A DNA stretch of 64,000 bases from Escherichia coli. Its GTDB lineage: Bacteria; Pseudomonadota; Gammaproteobacteria; Enterobacterales; Enterobacteriaceae. Position numbers and translations under genes: made by a program. Below the pieces are notes generated by a model. It saw only the letters and a program-made list of their open reading frames with translations. It made no database searches and was not told where the DNA came from. The stretch is from NCBI RefSeq assembly GCF_009931435.1, contig NZ_CP043414.1; one strand, given 5' to 3'. This document shows positions 11,321-51,668 of this stretch, in pieces; position 1 is the stretch's first letter; every line of letters begins with the position of its first letter.

Positions 11321-11347
11321 ACAAAAAACGCGCCCGAAGGTGCGTTG
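11321..11347. repeat. attL: left copy of 27-bp direct repeat (acaaaaaacgcgcccgaaggTgcgttg)
   Basis: Matches 49447..49473 with one mismatch; integrase gene lies just inside. Confidence 0.75.
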
Positions 11348-11433: not shown

Positions 11434-12456
11434 TTATGTGGATGAAATGTGGATGCCTCCTTTTAACGGATTAAGTGAAATTGCATCCTGGAGGAAATCA
11501 GGAGCGAGGTGCGCATAGGTCATAGTTTGCTGGATCGTGGCGTGCCCCATAATTCGCTGGAGCGTAAGTATATTTCCTCCATTAATCATAAAGTGAGCAG
11601 CAAAGGTATGGCGTAGAACATGTACAGCCTGTCCTTTTGGTAGGTCTGGCTTAACACTGCGAAGCACCTTGCGATATTCCTCATAATTGACGTCAAACAA
11701 AAGGCCGGATTTCTTTGTTTTGATCTCACTAACAACTTCATCAGAGACAGGAATAATTCGAACTTTTCCGTTTTTAGTTTTGTTAAACGTCACGCGATTA
11801 TTGATGATGTGTTCCGCGCGCAGATTTTTCGCTTCTCCCCATCTCGCCCCAGTACTGAGACAAAGTAGCGTAATCCGCCGGGCATCACCGCTTACTGCAT
11901 CCAGTAATTTGGCGATTTCTTCCATGGTGAGATACGTCATTTCGGGTGATTTTCGTTTCAAAGAGGGGAGGGCGCGGAGCGGATTTTCTCCGTGAAATTC
12001 CCCGGCATTTGCCAGGAGTGTAAACATTCCTCCGAGATCCGACTCATCACGCCGAACAGTAGACTCTTTTACTCCCAAAGATAAACGGGAGCTTCGATAA
12101 GCGGCCATGAAACGAGCATTAATCTGGCTAACCCTTGGATCATTCATTTCTTTGATGATTTTTTTCAACCTGGTTAGAACGCCGTTAGCATATGGCTTAT
12201 TGCGTCCACCCAATTCCCACCATAACGGAAGCAGATCTGAGAGATGACGTTGCTCTGTTGGCTTTTCAAGCCATTCCTTATCGTGCATGTGGCTGAGAAC
12301 ATAACGCTCAAAGGCCACTGCATCTGCCTTTTTCTTAAAAATCCGCTGAATCCGACGTCCACTTCGGCCACGCGGTCTAACATCCACTTTATACCGTCCA
12401 CCATCGAGCGCTTTAATTGCCATTGGCAAGCCCTCCGGTGAAACGAGGAAAGACAT
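11434..12456 (-). CDS. int: Tyrosine integrase, P2 Int-like (start possibly at 12423, MAIKALDGGRY)
   Basis: Similar to P2 Int as I recall it (LSTGARWGEA, HxLRHTFA, YAH motifs). Confidence 0.9.
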   Translation of the reverse strand: MSFLVSPEGLPMAIKALDGGRYKVDVRPRGRSGRRIQRIFKKKADAVAFERYVLSHMHDKEWLEKPTEQRHLSDLLPLWWELGGRNKPYANGVLTRLKKIIKEMNDPRVSQINARFMAAYRSSRLSLGVKESTVRRDESDLGGMFTLLANAGEFHGENPLRALPSLKRKSPEMTYLTMEEIAKLLDAVSGDARRITLLCLSTGARWGEAKNLRAEHIINNRVTFNKTKNGKVRIIPVSDEVVSEIKTKKSGLLFDVNYEEYRKVLRSVKPDLPKGQAVHVLRHTFAAHFMINGGNILTLQRIMGHATIQQTMTYAHLAPDFLQDAISLNPLKGGIHISST

Positions 12457-17615: not shown

Positions 17616-20438
17616 ATGACGGCAGAGTACATCAGGGACTGGCAACAACCGCGCCACGCAGTGGGGCGTGAAGGAACGGGGATCCCCGCTCCTGAATCCG
17701 CGCTTTCCTCCTGGCTGGATGCCTACCGGGTAGAGAACGAGCGCCGCCAGGAAATGGCTGATGCGGCGTTCTCCGCCACGCCGCTGGGCAACCTGATTAA
17801 TAAAAGCCTGGACGCACAGGAAAAACAGGACAAAACCATCACACTGGCAGGAGACGCCAGAAAACAGGCACGCGGCGCAGTGGATGAAGCCATGACCTCG
17901 CTGCGCCTGCTGCCGTCCTATCTGCGCGATCCGCTTATTCGCCACCTCTCCTTCCTGCGCAAAAAACAGGAAGCCGATCGCCGGAAAGGCAAAAAGAGCT
18001 GGCAGGCGGAACGCTATGCACGCGGAACCCTGCGCAAAATATTCGAACGTCTGGACCGCACCGATCACCGCTGGCTGACACCGGGTTATCGCTCCCTTGC
18101 CGGACGCGAACGCCTGGACGATTTGCTTTACCTGCCGCAGCTCAACAAACACCAGATACAGACGCTGGCCACCATGACGGCGGCGATGTTCAGCAGCACC
18201 TTCGAAAAACTCTGCGATGGCTTTGGCGCGACTGATGGCGAACTGACCATGGATGTAACGCTGAAGGCGTATCAGATGCTGGCCCGCATGGCGTTACACC
18301 TGCACGCCATGCCTCCACATTATGACGCACTGACAACAGACAAAGACCGGAGGAACGAACCGGACACAGAGCTGCTGCCGGGCGCAATCCTTCGCCTGAC
18401 CTGTGCGGAATGGTGGAAACGCAAACTGTGGCTGTTACGTTGCGAGTGGCGGGAAGAACAACTCCGCGCCGCCTGTCTGGTTTCCAGAAAAACATCGCCC
18501 TATCTGAGCCAGGACGCGTTAAGCGAGTTTCGCGCACAGCGCGAGAAAACACGCGATTTCCTGAAAAGTTTCATGCTGGAAAACGAAGACGGGTTCACGA
18601 TTGATCTCGAGACAGTGTATTACGCGGGAGTAAGTAACCCGGTTCACCGTAAGGCAGAAATGATGGCCACCATGAAGGGACTGGAACTTCTGGCCGAAGC
18701 CCGTGGCGACAGAGCGGTGTTTCTGACTGTCACCTGCCCGTCAAAATACCACGCAACAACGGAGAACGGTCATCCGAACCCCAAATGGAACGGGGCCACC
18801 ATGCGCGACTCCAGCGATTACCTGGTTAACACGTTTTTTGCGGCGGTCCGCAAAAAACTGAACCGCGACGGCCTGCGCTGGTATGGCATCCGCACGGTGG
18901 AGCCTCACCATGACGGCACCGTGCACTGGCATATGATGGTCTTTGCTCATCCGGAAGAAATCGACAGCATCGTGGCCATCACCCGCGATATTGCCATTCA
19001 GGAAGACCGCCACGAGCTGGGCAATGATATTACTCCGCGCTTTAAAGTGGAGTATGTCGACGGCTCAAAAGGCACACCAACCAGCTATATCGCGACCTAC
19101 ATCGGGAAAAACCTGGACAGCCGCGCCGTGGATGGCATCGACCCGAAAACGGGCAAACCACGCGTTGACCACGAAACCGGAAAGTCAATGGCCGAGAGCG
19201 TGGAACGCGCCATCGGCTGGGCGCGCCTTCACCGTGTCCGCCAGTTCCAGTTCTTTGGTATCCCCTCCCGTCAGGTGTGGCGTGAACTGCGTCGCCTTGC
19301 CAGCCAGATGGCACGCAACCCGGAAGGCCCGCAACAGCTGAAGGATGACGCAATGGATGCGGTACTCGCTGCCGCTGATGCCGGATGTTTTGCCACCTAC
19401 ATAGAGAAACAGGGCGGCGTTCTTGTTCCACGCAAAGACTACCTGATTCGCACCGCCTACGACCTCGCAGATGAGCTGAACGATTACGGCGAACAGAGCG
19501 TACAGATTTACGGGATCTGGTCGCCACTCATCGGGGAATCCTCCCGTGTGTGCACGCATCCGGATAACTGGAAGCTGGTAAGACGTAAACCGGAAACGGA
19601 AGACAGCGCCCGCGAAAATGGTTTTGACCTTCAGGGCGGCCCTGCCGCCCCTTGGACTCGTGGCAATAACTGTCCCCGTGTACAGGAAACGGACAACAAC
19701 GGGACAGAACAGCCGGAAGAACGGCCAGCACCGTGGCCGCAGCTTCCTGACAGCGTTGACGTGAATGAATGGATGCGCTCACTGAAACGGCACGAACGCC
19801 GGGCGCTGATGCGTTCGCTGCGTGACAAACAGGCAAAAAACAGCAGTGATGAAATGCAGAACTGGACACAGAGCCGCAAACAGCCACGGCCTTTGCCTGA
19901 TAACCACGAGTTACTCGCTAAAGAATGGCGGGAGTCTGCTGAATCTCTCGGCCTGCATATTGGTGAACAGCAGATGCAGCACCTGTTACGGGGCGGCAGT
20001 CTGTACGTTGACGGCAGCATCATTGCACCGCAGGGATTTGAAATTGTACGCAAACCGGATACCCGCCCGGACAGCCGAATCACGCAGCTCTGGCAGCGCC
20101 TGAGCCGTAATCACGGCGTAAGCAGCACGGGGATCCGCCATAACCCGGTCGCCAGCTATCTGGAACAGCTGGGGGCATCAGACCCCGAAGCCGCCGCACG
20201 CCTGGCATCCACACTTCAGCAGGACCAGAACACCATGAAAACCCCCGTTACCGTGCTTTCTGACATGCTGCGCGCCATCCGTGACGCAGAGCACGCACAG
20301 AGAATCAGTGAAACAACTGAACGCGCCCGCCGCAAAGCAGACCTGCTGCGGGGTGGCCTGACCAGTGGAAACAAAAAACAGACAAAAACAGGATTCACAA
20401 ATCCCGTAAATGAGCAAAAAACGCGCCGTGATATATGA
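17616..20438 (+). CDS. Rolling-circle replication initiator (HUH endonuclease, P2 gpA / phiX174 gpA family), 940 aa
   Basis: HUH motif in VHWHMMVFAHP and catalytic Tyr motif YIATYIGKNLD; position after the early operon. Confidence 0.8.
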   Translation: MTAEYIRDWQQPRHAVGREGTGIPAPESALSSWLDAYRVENERRQEMADAAFSATPLGNLINKSLDAQEKQDKTITLAGDARKQARGAVDEAMTSLRLLPSYLRDPLIRHLSFLRKKQEADRRKGKKSWQAERYARGTLRKIFERLDRTDHRWLTPGYRSLAGRERLDDLLYLPQLNKHQIQTLATMTAAMFSSTFEKLCDGFGATDGELTMDVTLKAYQMLARMALHLHAMPPHYDALTTDKDRRNEPDTELLPGAILRLTCAEWWKRKLWLLRCEWREEQLRAACLVSRKTSPYLSQDALSEFRAQREKTRDFLKSFMLENEDGFTIDLETVYYAGVSNPVHRKAEMMATMKGLELLAEARGDRAVFLTVTCPSKYHATTENGHPNPKWNGATMRDSSDYLVNTFFAAVRKKLNRDGLRWYGIRTVEPHHDGTVHWHMMVFAHPEEIDSIVAITRDIAIQEDRHELGNDITPRFKVEYVDGSKGTPTSYIATYIGKNLDSRAVDGIDPKTGKPRVDHETGKSMAESVERAIGWARLHRVRQFQFFGIPSRQVWRELRRLASQMARNPEGPQQLKDDAMDAVLAAADAGCFATYIEKQGGVLVPRKDYLIRTAYDLADELNDYGEQSVQIYGIWSPLIGESSRVCTHPDNWKLVRRKPETEDSARENGFDLQGGPAAPWTRGNNCPRVQETDNNGTEQPEERPAPWPQLPDSVDVNEWMRSLKRHERRALMRSLRDKQAKNSSDEMQNWTQSRKQPRPLPDNHELLAKEWRESAESLGLHIGEQQMQHLLRGGSLYVDGSIIAPQGFEIVRKPDTRPDSRITQLWQRLSRNHGVSSTGIRHNPVASYLEQLGASDPEAAARLASTLQQDQNTMKTPVTVLSDMLRAIRDAEHAQRISETTERARRKADLLRGGLTSGNKKQTKTGFTNPVNEQKTRRDI

Positions 20439-22857: not shown

Positions 22858-23892
22858 TCACTCCATGGGTTCATCAAAATCAAGAATAAATTTCACCTCC
22901 CCCAGTCGTCTGATATCCGGGTCGCTGTTGATCCCCTCCATAATCAGGCGGCGCATCGGGATAACCTCATCCCTGTAATATGCCTCGCGGGATTTCAGTG
23001 GGTCACCAAGCCCGGCCGTATTTGCGGGAATGATGCCGGCAAGCCCGGGTGGAAAACGGTGCGCAACGAGCTGATCCTGGGCACTGATAGTTTTTATATT
23101 CAGGAACTCATCTTTTGTACCTGAATCTCCGATAGGGATCACCTTAACGCCTTCTTTGTCTCCGCCAGGTATATTGATAAACATGGATTTAAAATTGCCC
23201 GCCCCTTTTGACGCCTCTATCTTTTTACGGAATTCCGCCTCGAGCTCGGGATCCATGTCCGGGTCAGTGGAATACAGGATATAACCAAGATGTGCGCCGT
23301 TCTTGTAATACTTGCGGCGAAAGCGGGTGGCATCCACATTCAGCATGGCAGATTCCATCCCGTGAATATAATCCGGGACACCGTAAACCTGCTGTTGCGG
23401 GTCATAAATGGCCACGAACACTACTTCGCCTGGCGGGTAAACGAGATCTTCCAGTGCCGCCTGCACAATCACCGTGCCACCCTCGTTGTTACGCCGCAGG
23501 TACAGAGAAGGTAACGTATGCAGGCGCACCACTCGACCGAAGCCATTGCGCACTTTAAGCAACCCCATATCCCCGAATATCAGCAGATTGGTTACTGCTG
23601 CCGCCATGGCGGCGTGTGTCATACCACCACCCCCCCGAAAACCCTGCATGATCATATTGACGCGCGCACGCAATACCGCGCCGTGATACGGTGCGATATT
23701 GGACAACATGGCGAGATCCATGCGCTCAATGGGCGGCGTGTACCAGCCGTTATAGCCATCCCAGAGCGAGCCGTAATAACAGCCCCATGCAGCGACCGGT
23801 TCCGGGTCACCAAATTCAATAAAAGTCATTTTGCTGGCTGTTTTTTTTGCCACGCCATCGTGTAACACGGGGTATTTTTTCTTTTTACTCAT
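22858..23892 (-). CDS. Portal protein (P2 gpQ-like, 344 aa)
   Basis: Size and position next to terminase large subunit, divergent from scaffold/capsid. Confidence 0.75.
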   Translation of the reverse strand: MSKKKKYPVLHDGVAKKTASKMTFIEFGDPEPVAAWGCYYGSLWDGYNGWYTPPIERMDLAMLSNIAPYHGAVLRARVNMIMQGFRGGGGMTHAAMAAAVTNLLIFGDMGLLKVRNGFGRVVRLHTLPSLYLRRNNEGGTVIVQAALEDLVYPPGEVVFVAIYDPQQQVYGVPDYIHGMESAMLNVDATRFRRKYYKNGAHLGYILYSTDPDMDPELEAEFRKKIEASKGAGNFKSMFINIPGGDKEGVKVIPIGDSGTKDEFLNIKTISAQDQLVAHRFPPGLAGIIPANTAGLGDPLKSREAYYRDEVIPMRRLIMEGINSDPDIRRLGEVKFILDFDEPME

Positions 23893-25672
23893 CTGACAGG
23901 ATCCATGTTGATTTGCGCTTGTGCTTATAGTTCAGGGGTTCATTACTTGCGGCATGAGCTATGGCAAAGAAGATGTCAGCGTGCCCGGTTTCTTCGCTAC
24001 GTTCGGCGGTGAAAGTGACTTTATTGCCGCTGTTGGTGGATTCCTGACGAATGGCCAGGAACGATGCCGGAATATCCGTGGCTTCTTCATCCCACTCAAT
24101 ACGGTTGGCGTAAATCAGATCCAGCATCTTCATCACCAGGCGGTTTTTGGATTCCACGCTGTAATGAATGGCCACTGTTTCACGGCGGGCAAATCCCTGA
24201 ACCAGCTCAAAGACACCGTAGCCAAGACCGGTGACGTCAATGCCGATAAATGTCATGTTATAGCGCGCCTTAATGCTGCGGATACGCTCTGCCATAAACT
24301 GGAATGACATGCTGCGCCAGTGGTGTTTTTCCAGCACGCGGAATCGTTCTGCCGCAACCAGCGGCGGTGCCAGCACAACAAATGTGGCGTTATCGCCGGA
24401 GCGCGCAGGGTCAAAGCCGCCCCACACTTCACGGTTACCAAATGGCATGGGCTCTTCCGGGTGAAAATCCTCCCACGTACTGACATCAACACCACAACGC
24501 ACAAGATCATCGAATTTAAAGACGCTCTCTTTGTCATCCACAAACACACACATAAACAGCATATTGAACGCTGTTTCGTTGTATCGCTCGCGCAGCTCGT
24601 TGATGTCAGCAAGGTTAAAGCCGCCGGCAATGGCATCTTCCAGCGTAACCACATAGCGCCACTGACCATCCGGACATTCACGCCCACCATCGCGCAGCTC
24701 ATCAAAGGACGGAAACTCAACCCCTTTTCGTTTCGGATCGCCTTTGCGCCATTCATCGCCAGACCAGAACGGGTAACCCTGGTGTGTTTTGGATGACGGC
24801 GTGGAGAAATAGGTAATGCGCCAGTGTTTATGGGTGGCCATCCCTGATGCCACTTCATTGAGACGGCGAAAACCGGGGATCCACAGGTATTCATCAATAT
24901 ACAGGTGGCCGCTGTTTGACTGCGCTGTGTTACTGTTGGTCGCCAGAAAATACAGTTCAGCCAGATTACTTAACTTAACCGGATTGCCTTTAATGGGAAT
25001 GCCAAACTCTGTTTGTGCAATTTTTACAATATAAGTACGGAACACTTCGGCCTGACGTTTTGATGCCGATAAAAATATCTGTGTGTCGCCGGTTAATACT
25101 GCATCTTCAAATGCCTCAAACGCGAAGTAATACGTCGCCCCAATCTGGCGGGATTTAAGCAGGTTGCGTACACGGCGGAATTTGTTTTCACGCAGATGCA
25201 ACTGATAAGCAAACAACTTTTTCGTAAACGGCTCAAAACTTTCAGCAGTCAGTCCGGAAACGTCATTAGCTTTGCGGGGGCGCTCTTTCTTACCTGCACC
25301 TTTTTCTCCGCGTTCTTCTTTTCCATAACGACCAGACTGGGGAATATCCGCTCCCATTCGTTCAATCTCGGCCATTCGTTCCGTGTGCTTGTTCCTGACC
25401 GACATCAGTTTGACATGATGACCAATCAGGCGATCGAGTTCATCGTGCTCTTCCGGCGTTTTATGATCACGCTCCGCCAGTACAGCGAGACGACGGGCGA
25501 TAACATCCTCCACGCCTTCAGTATTAAGCTGTGTGTACCACTCAAACTTTGTCGCCCAGTAATAAACAATTCGCGGGCTGTTCAGTCCGAGCTTCTTTTG
25601 TATTTCTTTTGGTGTGTGTCTTTTCAGATAGAGCGATTTTGCAGCAGCAATCACCTCATCAGAATACGCCAT
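23885..25672 (-). CDS. Terminase large (ATPase) subunit, P2 gpP-like
   Basis: 595 aa; ATPase motif region; gene order. Confidence 0.85.
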   Translation of the reverse strand: MAYSDEVIAAAKSLYLKRHTPKEIQKKLGLNSPRIVYYWATKFEWYTQLNTEGVEDVIARRLAVLAERDHKTPEEHDELDRLIGHHVKLMSVRNKHTERMAEIERMGADIPQSGRYGKEERGEKGAGKKERPRKANDVSGLTAESFEPFTKKLFAYQLHLRENKFRRVRNLLKSRQIGATYYFAFEAFEDAVLTGDTQIFLSASKRQAEVFRTYIVKIAQTEFGIPIKGNPVKLSNLAELYFLATNSNTAQSNSGHLYIDEYLWIPGFRRLNEVASGMATHKHWRITYFSTPSSKTHQGYPFWSGDEWRKGDPKRKGVEFPSFDELRDGGRECPDGQWRYVVTLEDAIAGGFNLADINELRERYNETAFNMLFMCVFVDDKESVFKFDDLVRCGVDVSTWEDFHPEEPMPFGNREVWGGFDPARSGDNATFVVLAPPLVAAERFRVLEKHHWRSMSFQFMAERIRSIKARYNMTFIGIDVTGLGYGVFELVQGFARRETVAIHYSVESKNRLVMKMLDLIYANRIEWDEEATDIPASFLAIRQESTNSGNKVTFTAERSEETGHADIFFAIAHAASNEPLNYKHKRKSTWILSDE

Positions 25673-47329: not shown

Positions 47330-48799
47330 ATGAAATTATCTCCAGCAGAATTGAAGTTAGAAAGGGGTAAGGTTCAAGATAATAAATTCAATCAATATGT
47401 TAAACGTATCACATTAAAAAATGTCAGAGGGTTTGATGAGGAAATTGTGGAGTTTAAAACACCAGTTACAGCTCTTATCGGGACTAATGGTGGAGGGAAG
47501 TCGACTATATTAGGTGCTGTAGCTCTCGCTTATAAAAATGTTAAGCCAAGCAAGTTTTTCCCTAAATCATTTTATGGGGATGATTCAATGAGTGATTGGG
47601 AAATTGGATTCGAATTGATTGACAAGCCTATTTCAAAAGATAAAAATATTAACAGGACTGCAAAATTTAAACAGATGAAATGGCGCAGAGATAATTTCCC
47701 AGAGCGAAATGTTGTATATGTAGAAATACAAAGAACTGTTCCTGCAGGCGAACTAACTAAGTTTAATAAATTTTTATCTGGCGATGCTAAACAATTTGAA
47801 GAAAAAAATCTCAACCCTGAGACAATAAAATATTGCTCTGCCGTTTTAGATAAAAAGATAGAAGATTACAGATGTATAATAAATAAGCACGATCCATCTT
47901 CAAGAATGTTTGTAGGTAAGGCAATTAATGGTTCTGGTTATTCTCAGTTCCATTTTGGTGCAGGTGAAGCATCAATAATAGATACTATTGATAGAATAGA
48001 GACTGCTGCTGATAATTCTCTTGTTTTAATTGAAGAAATTGAAAATGGACTGCATCCTGTTGCAGTGCGGTTGTTTGTTAACTATTTGACAAATGTAGCA
48101 AAGAGGAAAAAGCTGCAAATAATATTTACAACACATTCGCAGGATGCAGTAAACGAGCTAGAGCCAGAAGCTGTTTGGGCTTCTATTAACAAAAAAGTAT
48201 GGAATGGTAAACTAAGTATTGAAAGTTTACGCGCTATAACGGGACAGAAGATAAATTCGAAAGTTATATATGTTGAAGATTCTTTTGCAAAAGAGTGGGT
48301 TGAAAATGCGATGGATCGATATATTCCAGAACTAGCCTCAACAATAAAAGTCTACACGGCAGGTGGTTACCCCAGCGTGGTTAAAGTAAGTCAATATCAT
48401 AATGAGAACCCTACTATAAATTATCCATCAATCGCATTAGTTGATGGGGATATTAAAGGTAGACCCGGAACTAAAGATCTGCCTGATAATGCAATGTTCA
48501 TCGGGGATGATTATCCTGACGCTACGGTTTTTCATTATATTGCAAATAACATAGAAGAAAATGCCTCAGTTTTGAGGCAAAGATGTTTGTTAACAAGATT
48601 TGACGCTGAAAAGATTAAATCGGAAGTTGAGAGTGTGATGCATTCTGCATGTGATCACCATGTTTATTTTACTAGATTAAGTGATAAATTAGATTTTGCC
48701 TCAGAACTATTCATTCGAGCTGGTATGATAGATTTATTTAATGAGAAAAATCCAGAATTTTGGTCCCCAATTATGGACTTCATTAAAAAAGGTCTATAG
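47330..48799 (+). CDS. OLD-family-like ABC ATPase fused to Toprim/DUF4435-like domain (489 aa); candidate antiphage defence protein
   Basis: Walker A GTNGGGKST, Walker B LVLIEEIE, H-loop TTHS; C-terminal YVEDS (Glu) and ALVDGD (DxD); AT-rich gene. Confidence 0.65.
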   Translation: MKLSPAELKLERGKVQDNKFNQYVKRITLKNVRGFDEEIVEFKTPVTALIGTNGGGKSTILGAVALAYKNVKPSKFFPKSFYGDDSMSDWEIGFELIDKPISKDKNINRTAKFKQMKWRRDNFPERNVVYVEIQRTVPAGELTKFNKFLSGDAKQFEEKNLNPETIKYCSAVLDKKIEDYRCIINKHDPSSRMFVGKAINGSGYSQFHFGAGEASIIDTIDRIETAADNSLVLIEEIENGLHPVAVRLFVNYLTNVAKRKKLQIIFTTHSQDAVNELEPEAVWASINKKVWNGKLSIESLRAITGQKINSKVIYVEDSFAKEWVENAMDRYIPELASTIKVYTAGGYPSVVKVSQYHNENPTINYPSIALVDGDIKGRPGTKDLPDNAMFIGDDYPDATVFHYIANNIEENASVLRQRCLLTRFDAEKIKSEVESVMHSACDHHVYFTRLSDKLDFASELFIRAGMIDLFNEKNPEFWSPIMDFIKKGL

Positions 48800-48865
48800 T
48801 AATAATGCAAAAATATAATATTTAGTTTGCGATTTATATTTTTCATAATGAATTGTTGAGAAAAT

Positions 48866-48901
48866 AAGAGAGCATCGAAAATTGAGGCTCTCTTATTTTT
48901 A
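48866..48901 (+). terminator. Rho-independent terminator after the ATPase gene
   Basis: Hairpin aagagagc...gctctctt followed by T-run. Confidence 0.7.
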
Positions 48902-48959
48902 TGAGATATCTCTAATGTATTAATCGTTTTATTTTGGTGCTACCACCACTGATGCTAAC

Positions 48960-49346
48960 TTGTCGATCAGACATTCGCACTATTCAATATCTTTTAGGCT
49001 CCGCAATGAAAACGCCCCCGAAGGAACAATCCCCCGTCAATCGGTTGCCAAAGGCCATTTAGGTAAATCGCCTTCGAGGTCGTTCGATGGCTGCATGACG
49101 TTCCCGGTTATCCCGTCAAAGAAAATGCACTCGACCGGAAAACCAGAAGAACTAATGGCGGAGTTGGTCAGGACTGCGAATAGTGGCGGAACAGTCCTTG
49201 ATCCTTTTATGGGGCCAGGGACAACGGGTGTGGCTGCACTGAAAGCAGGGCGAAAATTTATTGGTATAGAGACCAGTGATCATTATTTTGAAGTAGCAGC
49301 ACAGCGACTTCGGGGGACTATTACCACAACCATTTCGACTACATAA
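48960..49346 (+). pseudogene. 3' fragment of a beta-class DNA methyltransferase gene (N6-adenine or N4-cytosine), N-terminally truncated
   Basis: HSTGKPEELMAEL and VLDPFMGPGTTGVAALKAGRKFIGIE (SAM-binding FxGxG) present; no catalytic DPPY region upstream. Confidence 0.6.
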
Positions 49347-49350
49347 GACA

Positions 49351-49378
49351 AAGCCCGCATTTTTGCGGGCTTGTATAT
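49351..49378 (+). terminator. Terminator hairpin after the methyltransferase remnant
   Basis: aagcccgca tttt tgcgggctt stem-loop. Confidence 0.6.
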
Positions 49379-49446
49379 CATTAGTGATGTGGACAGTTTG
49401 TGGATGTTTACAAGAAATAAGCTAATAGAAACAATTTGTTATCTTT

Positions 49447-49473
49447 ACAAAAAACGCGCCCGAAGGCGCGTTG
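49447..49473. repeat. attR: right copy of the 27-bp direct repeat; also the raiA terminator hairpin
   Basis: acaaaaaacgcgcccgaaggcgcgttg; perfect hairpin acgcgcc/ggcgcgt plus T-run on the raiA strand. Confidence 0.75.
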
Positions 49474-49495
49474 GCGATACACTCAATATAAAGGA

Positions 49496-49891
<396 letters not shown>

Positions 49892-50028
49892 TCAAAATGT
49901 GTGATGGAAATCTCATAATTTTGTCACTTTTTGTCAACGAATCTTTTTTGTGAGAAATCGCAGGAAGAGGTGTTTTTTTACTTGAGGAATATCTCAAAGC
50001 GAGCCATATTTGATGAGATCGATAGTGA

Positions 50029-50808
50029 CTAAATCGCTTCAGTTTCACAACTAACAGAATAAAAAAACGGCAGCTCAAGGCTGTAATGCCAGTCAGTTAA
50101 GCAACTGACTGGCTCTTTTTCGGGGCTGTGGGGTATTTCCAGGGCCTCTCCTTTACCACTCTCGGGAAGGCCCTTTCCCTTCTTGTCGGTAATTTCACTG
50201 GCTGTCCCATACTTGCAAGATCGCGCATCAGCTCCGGTATACGTCCCGGTGAAGCGCATGGCGTCCGTCATCGACGTCAGCAGATGGCTGGTCAGTTCCA
50301 TCTGGCAGACCATTTTGACCTGCGGGTAGAGCGCCGGGTTCCCGGCATGTGTCTGGCGGGGGAAGGCTGCATCGTTCTCTGGTGTATCCGGTGTGCGCCA
50401 GAACACACCATCGATGGCCAGCAGGGTCAGGCTGCACCAGTGCGGATGCAGCGTGGCGTTATGCCAGAGCTGCGCTGTTTTCGTGAACACGCGGCGGACA
50501 GCCTCACTTCCCAGGCGCTGGCGGGCCTGAATAACGGCACTGGGGGCAACGAAGGGGCGATTGCCCGGCAGCATGATGTCCAGGCGATTCACAATCTGGT
50601 GAAGAGGTTCTTTACGCTCAAGCGCCATGCCAACAATACACCAGACCATCATTTCGAGGGGAAGACGGCGCTTGCGTAGCGTTACAGTACCTGATTCGGC
50701 AAGGCAACGAGAGATGAGTTCGGGGTCGAGGTAATCCCCCAGAAAAGTCAGTGGGTTACGCAGAGAATCGTAACGGGATACCAAATCAAGGGCCTGTCCA
50801 ATGAGCAT
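50029..50808 (-). pseudogene. Truncated/frameshifted IS4 transposase (InsG N-terminal ~200 aa fused to out-of-frame tail)
   Basis: N-terminal sequence matches IS4 InsG as recalled, then diverges after HLLTSMTDAMRF. Confidence 0.75.
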
Positions 50809-50892
50809 AAAAAAATCCGGAAACGAGTGAGCGTTTCCGGATTCTTACACAGCCACTGAATCGGTCAACTGATCCTTAACTGATCGGCATTA
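50084..50892. mobile_element. IS4 copy with internal deletion (~0.8 kb versus 1.4 kb full length), with target-site duplication
   Basis: Terminal inverted repeats taatgccagtcagttaag / cttaactgatcggcatta; flanking direct repeat cagctcaagg(g)ctg at 50071..50083 and 50893..50906. Confidence 0.75.
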
Positions 50893-50930
50893 CAGCTCAA
50901 GGGCTGCCGTTTTTTTATTTCAATCTTCTG

Positions 50931-51668
50931 TTATGTATTGCTGCTGTTAGCAGCGATAATCTTCGCTACCTTTTCAGCTTGCGCATTCATCTGCATCTGA
51001 CGGTATGCATTTTCCATCAGCGGCAGCGCATCACGCGTAGCCTGGGTATCCGGATAGTCGCGCAACATGCCTTCTACGCGGTTAACGACAGCAACCCATG
51101 CACCACGTTCTGTATAATACTCGGCAACGGAGTATTCATATTTCGCCAGACGATCTTTCAGGAATACCAGACGTTTGGTGGCATCGGTGGTGTACTGACT
51201 GTTCGGATAGCCGCGCACCAGTTTGGAAAAGTCACTAAACGCAGCTCGTGCATGTTGAGGATCGCGATCGCTACGGTCAACGCCAAAGAACCCTTGCAGC
51301 GCACTGTCATCCAGCGCCATATTGGTCAGGCCACGCATGTACATGACATAATCGATATTCGGATGGGTCGGGTTAAGGCGAATAAAACGATCGATGGCAG
51401 CCTGTGCTAACGGCAAATCGGCGTTTTTATAGTAGGCGTAGATGAGATCCAGCTGCACCTGCTGCGAATACGGACCAAACGGATAGCGATTATCTAACGC
51501 TTCCAGTTGCGTTATTGCCTGTCTCCAGTTACCGTCCTGCAGCTTTTGTTGTGCAGTCGCGTAAATTTCATTTGGCGGATTATCAGGTACTTCTTCCTTT
51601 GACCCCGAGCAACCCGCCAAAAACAGGCTTAGTGTGGCGGCTGCCACCAGATATTTCATGCGCGTCAT
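50931..51668 (-). CDS. bamD: Outer membrane protein assembly factor BamD
   Basis: 245 aa; lipobox LAGC; TPR-like lipoprotein. Confidence 0.95.

What the first reader, a model, noticed from the sequence alone, without database searches (positions are those of the whole stretch)
50071..50906. Internally deleted IS4 inserted into the loop of the bamD-raiA intergenic hairpin
IS4-type terminal inverted repeats flank ~0.8 kb instead of the ~1.4 kb full element. The transposase reading frame matches InsG for ~200 residues and then diverges just after one of two copies of the HLLTSMTDAMRF peptide present in intact InsG, consistent with an internal deletion. The element is flanked by a direct repeat cagctcaagg(g)ctg that lies inside a palindrome (acggcagc ... 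gctgccgt), i.e. a terminator loop, close to the raiA promoter region.
Basis: partly seen in the sequence, partly recalled or inferred. Interest (0 to 1): 0.35.

Follow-up and report, generated by a model that had tools for sequence, protein, structure and literature searches.

The report
Decayed IS4 copy in bamD terminator
This is an ordinary dead copy of the E. coli insertion sequence IS4, shortened by two internal deletions, sitting in the terminator hairpin after bamD, a site that IS4 hits repeatedly across the species.

Summary
Window 50084-50892 (minus strand) is an 809 bp IS4 relic, 98.8% identical to the 1426 bp element over its retained sequence, with both ends intact. It is flanked by a duplicated target: 14 bp on the bamD side and 13 bp on the raiA side. 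That target is the loop plus the inner four stem pairs of the bamD terminator hairpin.

Two details need correcting:
- There are two deletions, not one. The first is 336 bp, in frame, between 14 bp direct repeats that encode HLLT. The second is 281 bp, frameshifting, at a 7 bp repeat.
- HLLTSMTDAMRF occurs once in intact InsG. Only HLLT is repeated.

Two of the three DDE catalytic residues and the YREK motif are gone, and all five coding substitutions change an amino acid. NCBI's PGAP pipeline already annotates the identical relic as a frameshifted IS4 pseudogene.

The deletion-1 junction is in 22 of 5426 complete E. coli genomes, always once per genome. E2348/69 carries a deletion-1-only intermediate at the same site. 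Full-length IS4 also occupies this hairpin in both orientations in several hundred genomes, so the site is a hot spot that fits IS4's documented target specificity.

This is an ordinary, already-known kind of feature. Any effect on raiA is untested and probably small.

The parts
50084..50892 (-). IS4 relic, 809 bp (IS4 nt 1-618 / 955-978 / 1260-1426)
   Evidence: Collinear blocks against full-length IS4 from L002 and L004, with 10 mismatches. PGAP annotates the 100% identical copy in strain 2020CK-00188 as 'IS4 family transposase, frameshifted'.
50875..50892 (-). Left terminal inverted repeat (IRL), on the bamD side
   Evidence: TAATGCCGATCAGTTAAG is identical to canonical IS4. The first mismatch is at IS4 nt 34.
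50084..50101 (-). Right terminal inverted repeat (IRR), on the raiA side
   Evidence: The last 115 nt are identical to canonical IS4.
50893..50906 (.). Target-site duplication, bamD-side copy (14 bp, CAGCTCAAGGGCTG)
50071..50083 (.). Target-site duplication, raiA-side copy (13 bp, one G of the run missing)
   Evidence: A 13 bp empty-site allele exists in APEC E19035 (L013).
50275..50288 (-). Deletion-1 junction. One 14 bp repeat GCCATCTGCTGACG remains. IS4 nt 619-954 (336 bp, InsG residues 179-290) are lost, in frame.
50251..50257 (-). Deletion-2 junction. One 7 bp repeat GCGCTTC remains. IS4 nt 979-1259 (281 bp, InsG residues 299-392) are lost, causing a frameshift.
50029..50808 (-). Truncated transposase ORF, 259 aa. 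Only the Nterm_IS4 domain remains, and the ORF runs through IRR into flanking DNA.
   Evidence: Pfam detects PF13006 only. PF01609 (the DDE domain) is found in intact InsG but not here. Alignment to InsG.
50097..50228 (-). Out-of-frame remnant that encodes InsG residues 400-442
50809..50842 (-). IS4-internal hairpin (11 G+C-rich pairs) plus U7, immediately upstream of the transposase ATG. It probably substitutes as the terminator for bamD read-through.
   Evidence: The 81 nt segment containing it folds at -34 kcal/mol with z = -4.6. The terminator function is inferred.
50841..50868 (-). Promoter-like site at and just inside IRL (TTGACC-16-AAGAAT, TG-extended)
   Evidence: consensus scan only.
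50088..50123 (+). IRR hairpin (11 bp stem) followed by TCTTTTT. It looks like a terminator for transcription entering the element from the raiA side.
50931..51668 (-). bamD coding sequence (context). Its terminator is the insertion target.
49496..49837 (-). raiA coding sequence (context). Its ATG is 246 bp from the element end.

Best explanation
An IS4 element inserted into the intrinsic terminator hairpin just downstream of bamD and duplicated 13-14 bp of it (the loop plus the inner stem). IS4 prefers this kind of site.

The copy then decayed in place in two steps:
1. Slippage or recombination between two 14 bp direct repeats removed 336 bp.
2. A second deletion at a short repeat removed 281 bp and shifted the reading frame.

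Together these removed the second Asp and the Glu of the DDE triad, and the YREK motif. The relic cannot make transposase and shows no sign of having moved.

Shown here: the relic's identity, its boundaries, the duplication, both deletion junctions, the domain loss, and its distribution among complete genomes.

Inferred: bamD transcripts, which have lost their own terminator, are probably stopped by IS4's built-in hairpin plus U-run about 50-85 nt inside the element. raiA is probably little affected.
For: - Identity and boundaries.
- Empty site: a strong hairpin plus U7.
- Intermediate form: a deletion-1-only copy at the same locus in E2348/69.
- Loss of catalytic function: the DDE domain is undetectable. 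The deletions cover InsG residues 179-290 (LMDKG Asp) and 299-392 (YSHRWEIELGYREIK).
- Relaxed selection: all 5 coding substitutions in the retained in-frame part are non-synonymous.
- Single locus: the deletion-1 junction is in 22 genomes, one place each. All seven carriers I inspected have it at bamD-raiA.
- No mobilisation: RMDEC465 has 31 IS4 places but only one relic.
- No transposase source nearby: the closest relative, 2020CK-00188, has no other IS4 sequence (H1).
- Hot spot: full-length IS4 sits at the same position in the same orientation (L002) and in the opposite orientation (L011).
- Target similarity: four independent IS4 targets share AAA-N18-20-TTT arms around a palindromic core.
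- Literature: PMC2266710 reports striking specificity in the target arms for some IS4-subgroup elements.
- IS4-internal hairpin plus U7.
Against: - The two duplication copies differ by one base (14 vs 13 bp) in this window. This goes with a cluster of changes in the bamD-side flank that is seen only in this sublineage.
- The window relic and the E2348/69 relic differ at 19 of 809 positions, and E2348/69 has its terminal dinucleotides swapped. Common descent of the two copies is therefore likely but not proven.
- Both deletion junctions also occur in IS4 relics at other loci. Strictly in-place origin of deletion 2 is therefore not certain.
- The terminator-substitution step and the lack of effect on raiA are inferences. 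No expression data were available.
Confidence: 0.92

Rival explanations
1. The 809 bp element is a non-autonomous, MITE-like IS4 derivative that full-length IS4 mobilises in trans and that transposed into this site already deleted.
For: Both ends are intact. The same deletion-1 junction is in a relic at a prophage-associated locus in MIN10, and the same deletion-2 junction is in relics between adhE and tdk.
Against: The double-deleted form occurs once per genome, and at bamD-raiA in every carrier inspected. This holds even in RMDEC465, which has 31 IS4 places. A deletion-1-only intermediate sits at the same site. The relics at other loci carry only one of the two deletions and have mosaic, mostly private SNPs. 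The MIN10 copy has no recognisable duplication.
Confidence: 0.05
2. Deletion 2 did not arise in place. It was copied into the bamD-raiA relic by gene conversion from the adhE-tdk relic, which carries the identical junction.
For: E2348/69 carries both a deletion-1-only copy at bamD-raiA and a deletion-2-only copy at adhE-tdk. The window copy shares IS4 nt 1286 G with the adhE-tdk relics but shares nt 1310 C with the E2348/69 bamD copy. That pattern is compatible with a short conversion patch.
Against: The MIN10 copy also combines 1286 G with 1310 C and lacks deletion 2. Genomes with the double-deleted relic show no second deletion-2 junction, so no donor is present now (one place per genome). 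In IS4 variants with nt 979 = A, the deletion-2 repeats are a perfect 12 bp, which makes independent recurrence plausible.
Confidence: 0.2
3. The truncated ORF is a domesticated protein, for example an N-terminal DNA-binding fragment that inhibits IS4 transposition or protects the hot spot.
For: The ORF keeps an ATG, the complete Nterm_IS4 domain and the element's promoter-like site.
Against: All 5 coding substitutions against active IS4 are non-synonymous. The ORF has a 69-residue out-of-frame tail that runs past the IS end. Some carriers have IS200 inserted between the promoter region and the ATG. PGAP calls it a pseudogene.
Confidence: 0.03
4. The insertion materially changes raiA expression, either by read-through from bamD or the IS, or by displacing upstream regulatory DNA.
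For: The element lies 246 bp upstream of the raiA ATG, and the native bamD terminator is split. A sigma-S RNA polymerase ChIP-seq region reported in PMC4447067 is listed for raiA and, by my recollection of the K-12 gene coordinates, covers much of this intergenic region.
Against: There are strong hairpins at both IS ends, and the residual half-terminator plus U7 remains on the raiA side. The recognisable CRP-like site (TGTGA-N6-TCTCA, 49900-49915) and the TTGACA (49890-49895) are at least 140 bp from the element (sequence inspection). raiA itself encodes the same protein as in reference genomes (WP_000178456.1).
Confidence: 0.15

Closest known systems
IS4 (insG of E. coli K-12; IS4 family, IS4 subgroup)
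   Same: 98.8% nucleotide identity over the retained 809 bp. The terminal inverted repeats are identical. The N-terminal transposase domain, the duplication length class, and the palindromic AAA...TTT type of target all match.
   Different: 617 bp are missing in two blocks, there is no DDE domain and the frame is shifted, so the copy is not autonomous. This copy has 14 and 13 bp repeats, and full-length copies at this site have 14 bp, whereas PMC2266710 lists 10-13 bp for the subgroup.
IS4 relic at bamD-raiA in EPEC E2348/69 (locus tag E2348C_RS15405)
   Same: Same insertion point, same orientation and the same deletion-1 junction, with a 13 bp duplication.
   Different: It lacks deletion 2 (1089 bp). 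It differs at 19 positions over the shared sequence. The dinucleotides at IS4 nt 8-9 and 1418-1419 are exchanged between its two ends.
IS4 relic between adhE and tdk (for example RM14723, E2348/69)
   Same: Identical deletion-2 junction. The target is also a terminator-like hairpin, AAACGGCCCC-TTCT-GGGGCCGTTTT, with a 12 bp duplication.
   Different: It is at a different locus, it lacks deletion 1 (1144-1145 bp), and its IRL carries AG at nt 8-9.
Hairpins at IS ends that block activation by outside transcription (described for IS10 and IS50; from my own knowledge of the IS literature)
   Same: IS4 has a hairpin plus U-run between the promoter-like site near IRL and the transposase ATG. A transcript starting at the element's own promoter would begin inside the 5' arm of that hairpin.
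   Different: This has not been demonstrated for IS4 here, and no transcript data were available.

Membership tests
IS4 (IS4 family, IS4 subgroup) | Nucleotide identity to the reference element across the retained sequence | tested here: met
   799 of 809 positions match, in three collinear blocks.
IS4 (IS4 family, IS4 subgroup) | Characteristic terminal inverted repeats (TAATGCC...) | tested here: met
   Both ends are identical to active IS4.
IS4 (IS4 family, IS4 subgroup) | Flanking target duplication of about one helical turn (10-13 bp per PMC2266710) | tested here: met
   13 bp and 14 bp copies that differ by one G. Other carriers of the relic have 13/13.
IS4 (IS4 family, IS4 subgroup) | Single ORF that encodes a DDE transposase with the Y(2)R(3)E(6)K motif | tested here: not met
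   Only Nterm_IS4 is detected. The second Asp, the Glu and the YREK motif lie in the deleted segments. The copy is therefore a relic of IS4, not a functional member.
Non-autonomous mobile derivative (MITE-like) | Several copies at different sites, each with its own duplication | tested here: not met
   The deletion-1 junction occurs at one place per genome in all 22 genomes. The seven carriers inspected all have it at bamD-raiA.
Rho-independent terminator (the insertion target) | G+C-rich stem-loop followed by a U-run just downstream of a stop codon | tested here: met
   The empty site has an 11 bp stem, a 6 nt loop and U7, and starts about 15 nt after the bamD stop. It folds at -18.5 kcal/mol with z = -6.8.
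Rho-independent terminator (the insertion target) | Termination of bamD transcripts in vivo | not testable with these tools
   Needs 3' end mapping.

The most novel reading that the evidence does not exclude
Two linked ideas remain open.

1. IS4 may choose its target and set its staggered cuts by reading the two conserved arms (AAACGG / CCGTTT) of terminator-like palindromes, not by a fixed spacing. Duplication length (11, 12, 13 or 14 bp) would then track the spacing between the arms. The bamD terminator would be a species-wide hot spot hit independently in both orientations.

2. IS4 copies may decay along a stereotyped path, because the same two repeat-flanked deletions recur in independent copies at different loci.
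Probability: 0.45. Interest if true: 0.25.

Novelty: already known. Interest (0 to 1): 0.1.

Why it matters
It matters little. The region is a correctly recognisable IS4 pseudogene that public annotation already flags.

Its modest value is in three things:
- It is a clean example of IS decay by deletions between short direct repeats, with an intermediate form preserved in E2348/69.
- It adds evidence that the bamD terminator is a recurrent IS4 target.
- The relic could serve as a lineage marker.

bamD is essential and raiA controls ribosome hibernation, so a regulatory side effect would be worth one simple expression test. Nothing in the sequence suggests a strong effect.

Tried and rejected
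- **Single deletion between two copies of HLLTSMTDAMRF.** Rejected. The peptide occurs once, and there are two deletions.
- **Other IS4 sequence in the window.** None found.
- **Known RNA family in the intergenic region.** An Rfam scan of 49000-51300 gave only a sub-threshold MicC-like match (31.8 bits against a cut-off of 90), which I treat as chance.
- **Counting site occupancy with short junction queries.** This worked only partly. Other IS4 targets are so similar, and this target is so palindromic, that each query also picked up other sites and the opposite end. The occupancy numbers are therefore approximate.
- **Literature on IS4 at raiA or bamD.** Nothing specific found. The classical AAA-N20-TTT target description for IS4 is from my memory of 1980s papers and could not be retrieved. 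PMC2266710 supports target-arm specificity in general terms.
- **Promoter scan upstream of raiA.** The consensus scan found no promoter-like site there. The promoter position remains an inference from a CRP-like site seen by eye.
- **Deciding how the shared junctions arose.** The SNP table could not separate recurrent deletion, gene conversion and mobilisation.

Full report
**What is there.** Window 50084-50892 is an 809 bp element whose coding sense is on the minus strand. bamD (50931-51668) and raiA (49496-49837) are on the same strand. Compared with a full-length 1426 bp IS4, the element aligns in three collinear blocks: IS4 nt 1-618, 941-983 and 1253-1426. I used two full-length copies for this, L004 (next to glgP) and L002 (at this very site in strain PO06021). 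They differ from each other by one base. The window copy has ten mismatches. Its first 33 nt and last 115 nt, which include both terminal inverted repeats, are identical to the active element.

**The deletions.** There are two.
- Deletion 1 removes IS4 nt 619-954 (336 bp, in frame). It lies between two 14 bp direct repeats, GCCATCTGCTGACG, of which one copy remains at window 50275-50288. These repeats encode HLLT at InsG residues 175 and 287.
- Deletion 2 removes nt 979-1259 (281 bp, frameshifting). Its junction is a 7 bp repeat, GCGCTTC, at window 50251-50257.

That peptide occurs once, and only HLLT is repeated. At protein level the 259 aa ORF matches InsG residues 1-179 and then 287-300, after which it is out of frame. 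A separate 43 aa ORF matches InsG 400-442. The deleted segments contain the second Asp (LMDKG) and the YSHRWEIELGYREIK motif that holds the catalytic Glu. Pfam finds only the IS4 N-terminal domain, whereas intact InsG also scores for the DDE domain. All five substitutions in the retained in-frame coding part are non-synonymous, as expected for a pseudogene. PGAP annotates the 100% identical copy in strain 2020CK-00188 as 'IS4 family transposase, frameshifted'.

**The target.**
- *Empty site.* In K-12-like genomes the site reads AAAACGGCAGC-CCTTGA-GCTGCCGTTTTTTT. It starts about 15 nt after the bamD stop and folds as an 11 bp stem followed by U7, at -18.5 kcal/mol with z = -6.8. This is the expected bamD terminator.
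- *What was duplicated.* The duplicated segment is the loop plus the four inner stem pairs.
- *14 versus 13 bp.* In this window the bamD-side copy is 14 bp and the raiA-side copy is 13 bp. Both a 14 bp and a 13 bp allele exist as empty sites, in K-12-like genomes and in APEC E19035 respectively. The relics in E2348/69 and MFDS1022581 have a clean 13/13 duplication. The window's extra G comes with a cluster of changes in the next 25 bp of the bamD-side flank, so it is a secondary change in this sublineage.

**Distribution.**
- *Deletion 1.* A 40 nt probe across the deletion-1 junction, designed so that intact IS4 cannot seed a match, hits 22 of 5426 complete E. coli genomes, once each. The seven carriers I inspected all have it between bamD and raiA.
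- *Deletion 2.* The deletion-2 probe hits 53 genomes, once each.
- *Intermediate.* E2348/69 has a deletion-1-only copy (1089 bp) at bamD-raiA, which is an intermediate form. It also has a separate deletion-2-only relic between adhE and tdk, as do the two other deletion-2-only carriers inspected at that locus.
- *Third locus.* A deletion-1-only relic also exists at a prophage-associated locus in strain MIN10.
- *How the shared junctions arose.* The variable-site table is mosaic. It does not decide between recurrent slippage at the repeats, gene conversion between relics, and old mobilisation of deleted copies.
- *No recent mobility.* The double-deleted form is single-copy even in RMDEC465, which has 31 IS4 places. 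The closest relative of this window, 2020CK-00188, has no other IS4 sequence at all.

**A hot spot.** Full-length IS4 sits at exactly this position in the same orientation (L002; 14/14 bp duplication; one base different from the L004 reference copy, so it is a recent and independent event). It also sits there in the opposite orientation (L011). About 330 genomes have an IS4 here in the window's orientation. The junction searches suggest roughly a hundred more in the other orientation, but those counts are approximate because the target is palindromic and resembles other IS4 targets. Four independent targets share AAA-N18-20-TTT arms around a palindromic core, with duplications of 11-14 bp: bamD-raiA, next to glgP, adhE-tdk and within yicI. 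[quoted passage not shown] The 14 bp duplication is one base longer than the 10-13 bp range tabulated in PMC2266710.

**Likely consequences (inferred).**
- *bamD side.* Only a 5 bp stem without a U-run is left on the bamD side, with z = -0.4. About 50-85 nt inside the element, IS4 has its own hairpin of 11 G+C-rich pairs followed by U7, directly before the transposase ATG at window 50809-50842. It should stop bamD read-through. A promoter-like site at and just inside IRL would start transcription inside the 5' arm of that hairpin. This resembles the scheme by which other insertion sequences avoid activation from outside, which I cite from my own knowledge.
- *raiA side.* The IRR hairpin and the residual half-terminator plus U7 remain.
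- *raiA promoter.* The nearest CRP-like and -35-like sequences upstream of raiA are at 49890-49915, at least 140 bp from the element (by eye). The consensus scan found no promoter there. No expression data were available, so a regulatory effect on raiA is neither shown nor excluded. I rate it unlikely to be large.

**Verdict.** The feature is a decayed copy of a well-known insertion sequence in a known type of preferred target, and public annotation already records it. Novelty: already known. Interest: low.

Noticed in passing
window ~11348-49446: Compared with the near-identical strain 2020CK-00188, this window has an extra ~38 kb between pheL and raiA. It is a P2-like prophage: integrase 11434-12456, gpA-type nickase 17616-20438, portal 22858-23892, terminase 23885-25672, and baseplate and tail-fibre genes at 35-45 kb. 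It is bounded by copies of the raiA terminator hairpin ACAAAAAACGCGCCCGAAGG(T/C)GCGTT at about 11321-11346 and 49447-49472.
   Followed up: partly
window 47330-49346: The prophage end next to raiA carries a 489 aa AAA_15/AAA_21 ATPase that matches the PADLOC candidate defence protein HEC-04 almost end to end (E = 6e-204). It is followed by only the 3' fragment of an N6_N4 DNA methylase. In other genomes (L010, L014) that methylase is intact, with Com and Hok genes upstream. This looks like a cargo swap at a prophage hot spot.
   Followed up: partly
L008 (E2348/69 relic), IS4 nt 8-9 and 1418-1419: The dinucleotides that distinguish IRL from IRR are exchanged between the two ends of this copy, while its interior has the same orientation as the window copy. 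The adhE-tdk relics have AG at both ends. Unexplained.
   Followed up: no
L006/L007 (adhE-tdk) and L009 (MIN10): IS4 relics at other loci carry exactly the same deletion junctions as the window copy, but only one deletion each. In MIN10, IS4 nt 979 is A, which makes the deletion-2 repeats a perfect 12 bp.
   Followed up: partly
L003 1592-2284 and L017 (same site in strains Z0117EC0005 and AST85): In a subset of relic carriers an IS200 element is inserted inside the relic, just after IS4's internal hairpin and T-run and before the transposase ATG.
   Followed up: no
window 50907-50930: The 25 bp on the bamD side of the duplication carry a cluster of differences from the four other flank alleles compared: TTTTTTTATTTCAATCTTCTGT against TTTTGTGTTTCAGGTTTCTGT. 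The first part is the exact reverse complement of the raiA-side arm. Strains 2020CK-00188 and Z0117EC0005 share this allele.
   Followed up: partly
L002 and L011 (full-length IS4 at the bamD terminator): These copies have a 14 bp target duplication, one base longer than the 10-13 bp range listed for the IS4 subgroup in PMC2266710. Across the four sites, duplication length tracks the spacing between the conserved target arms.
   Followed up: partly
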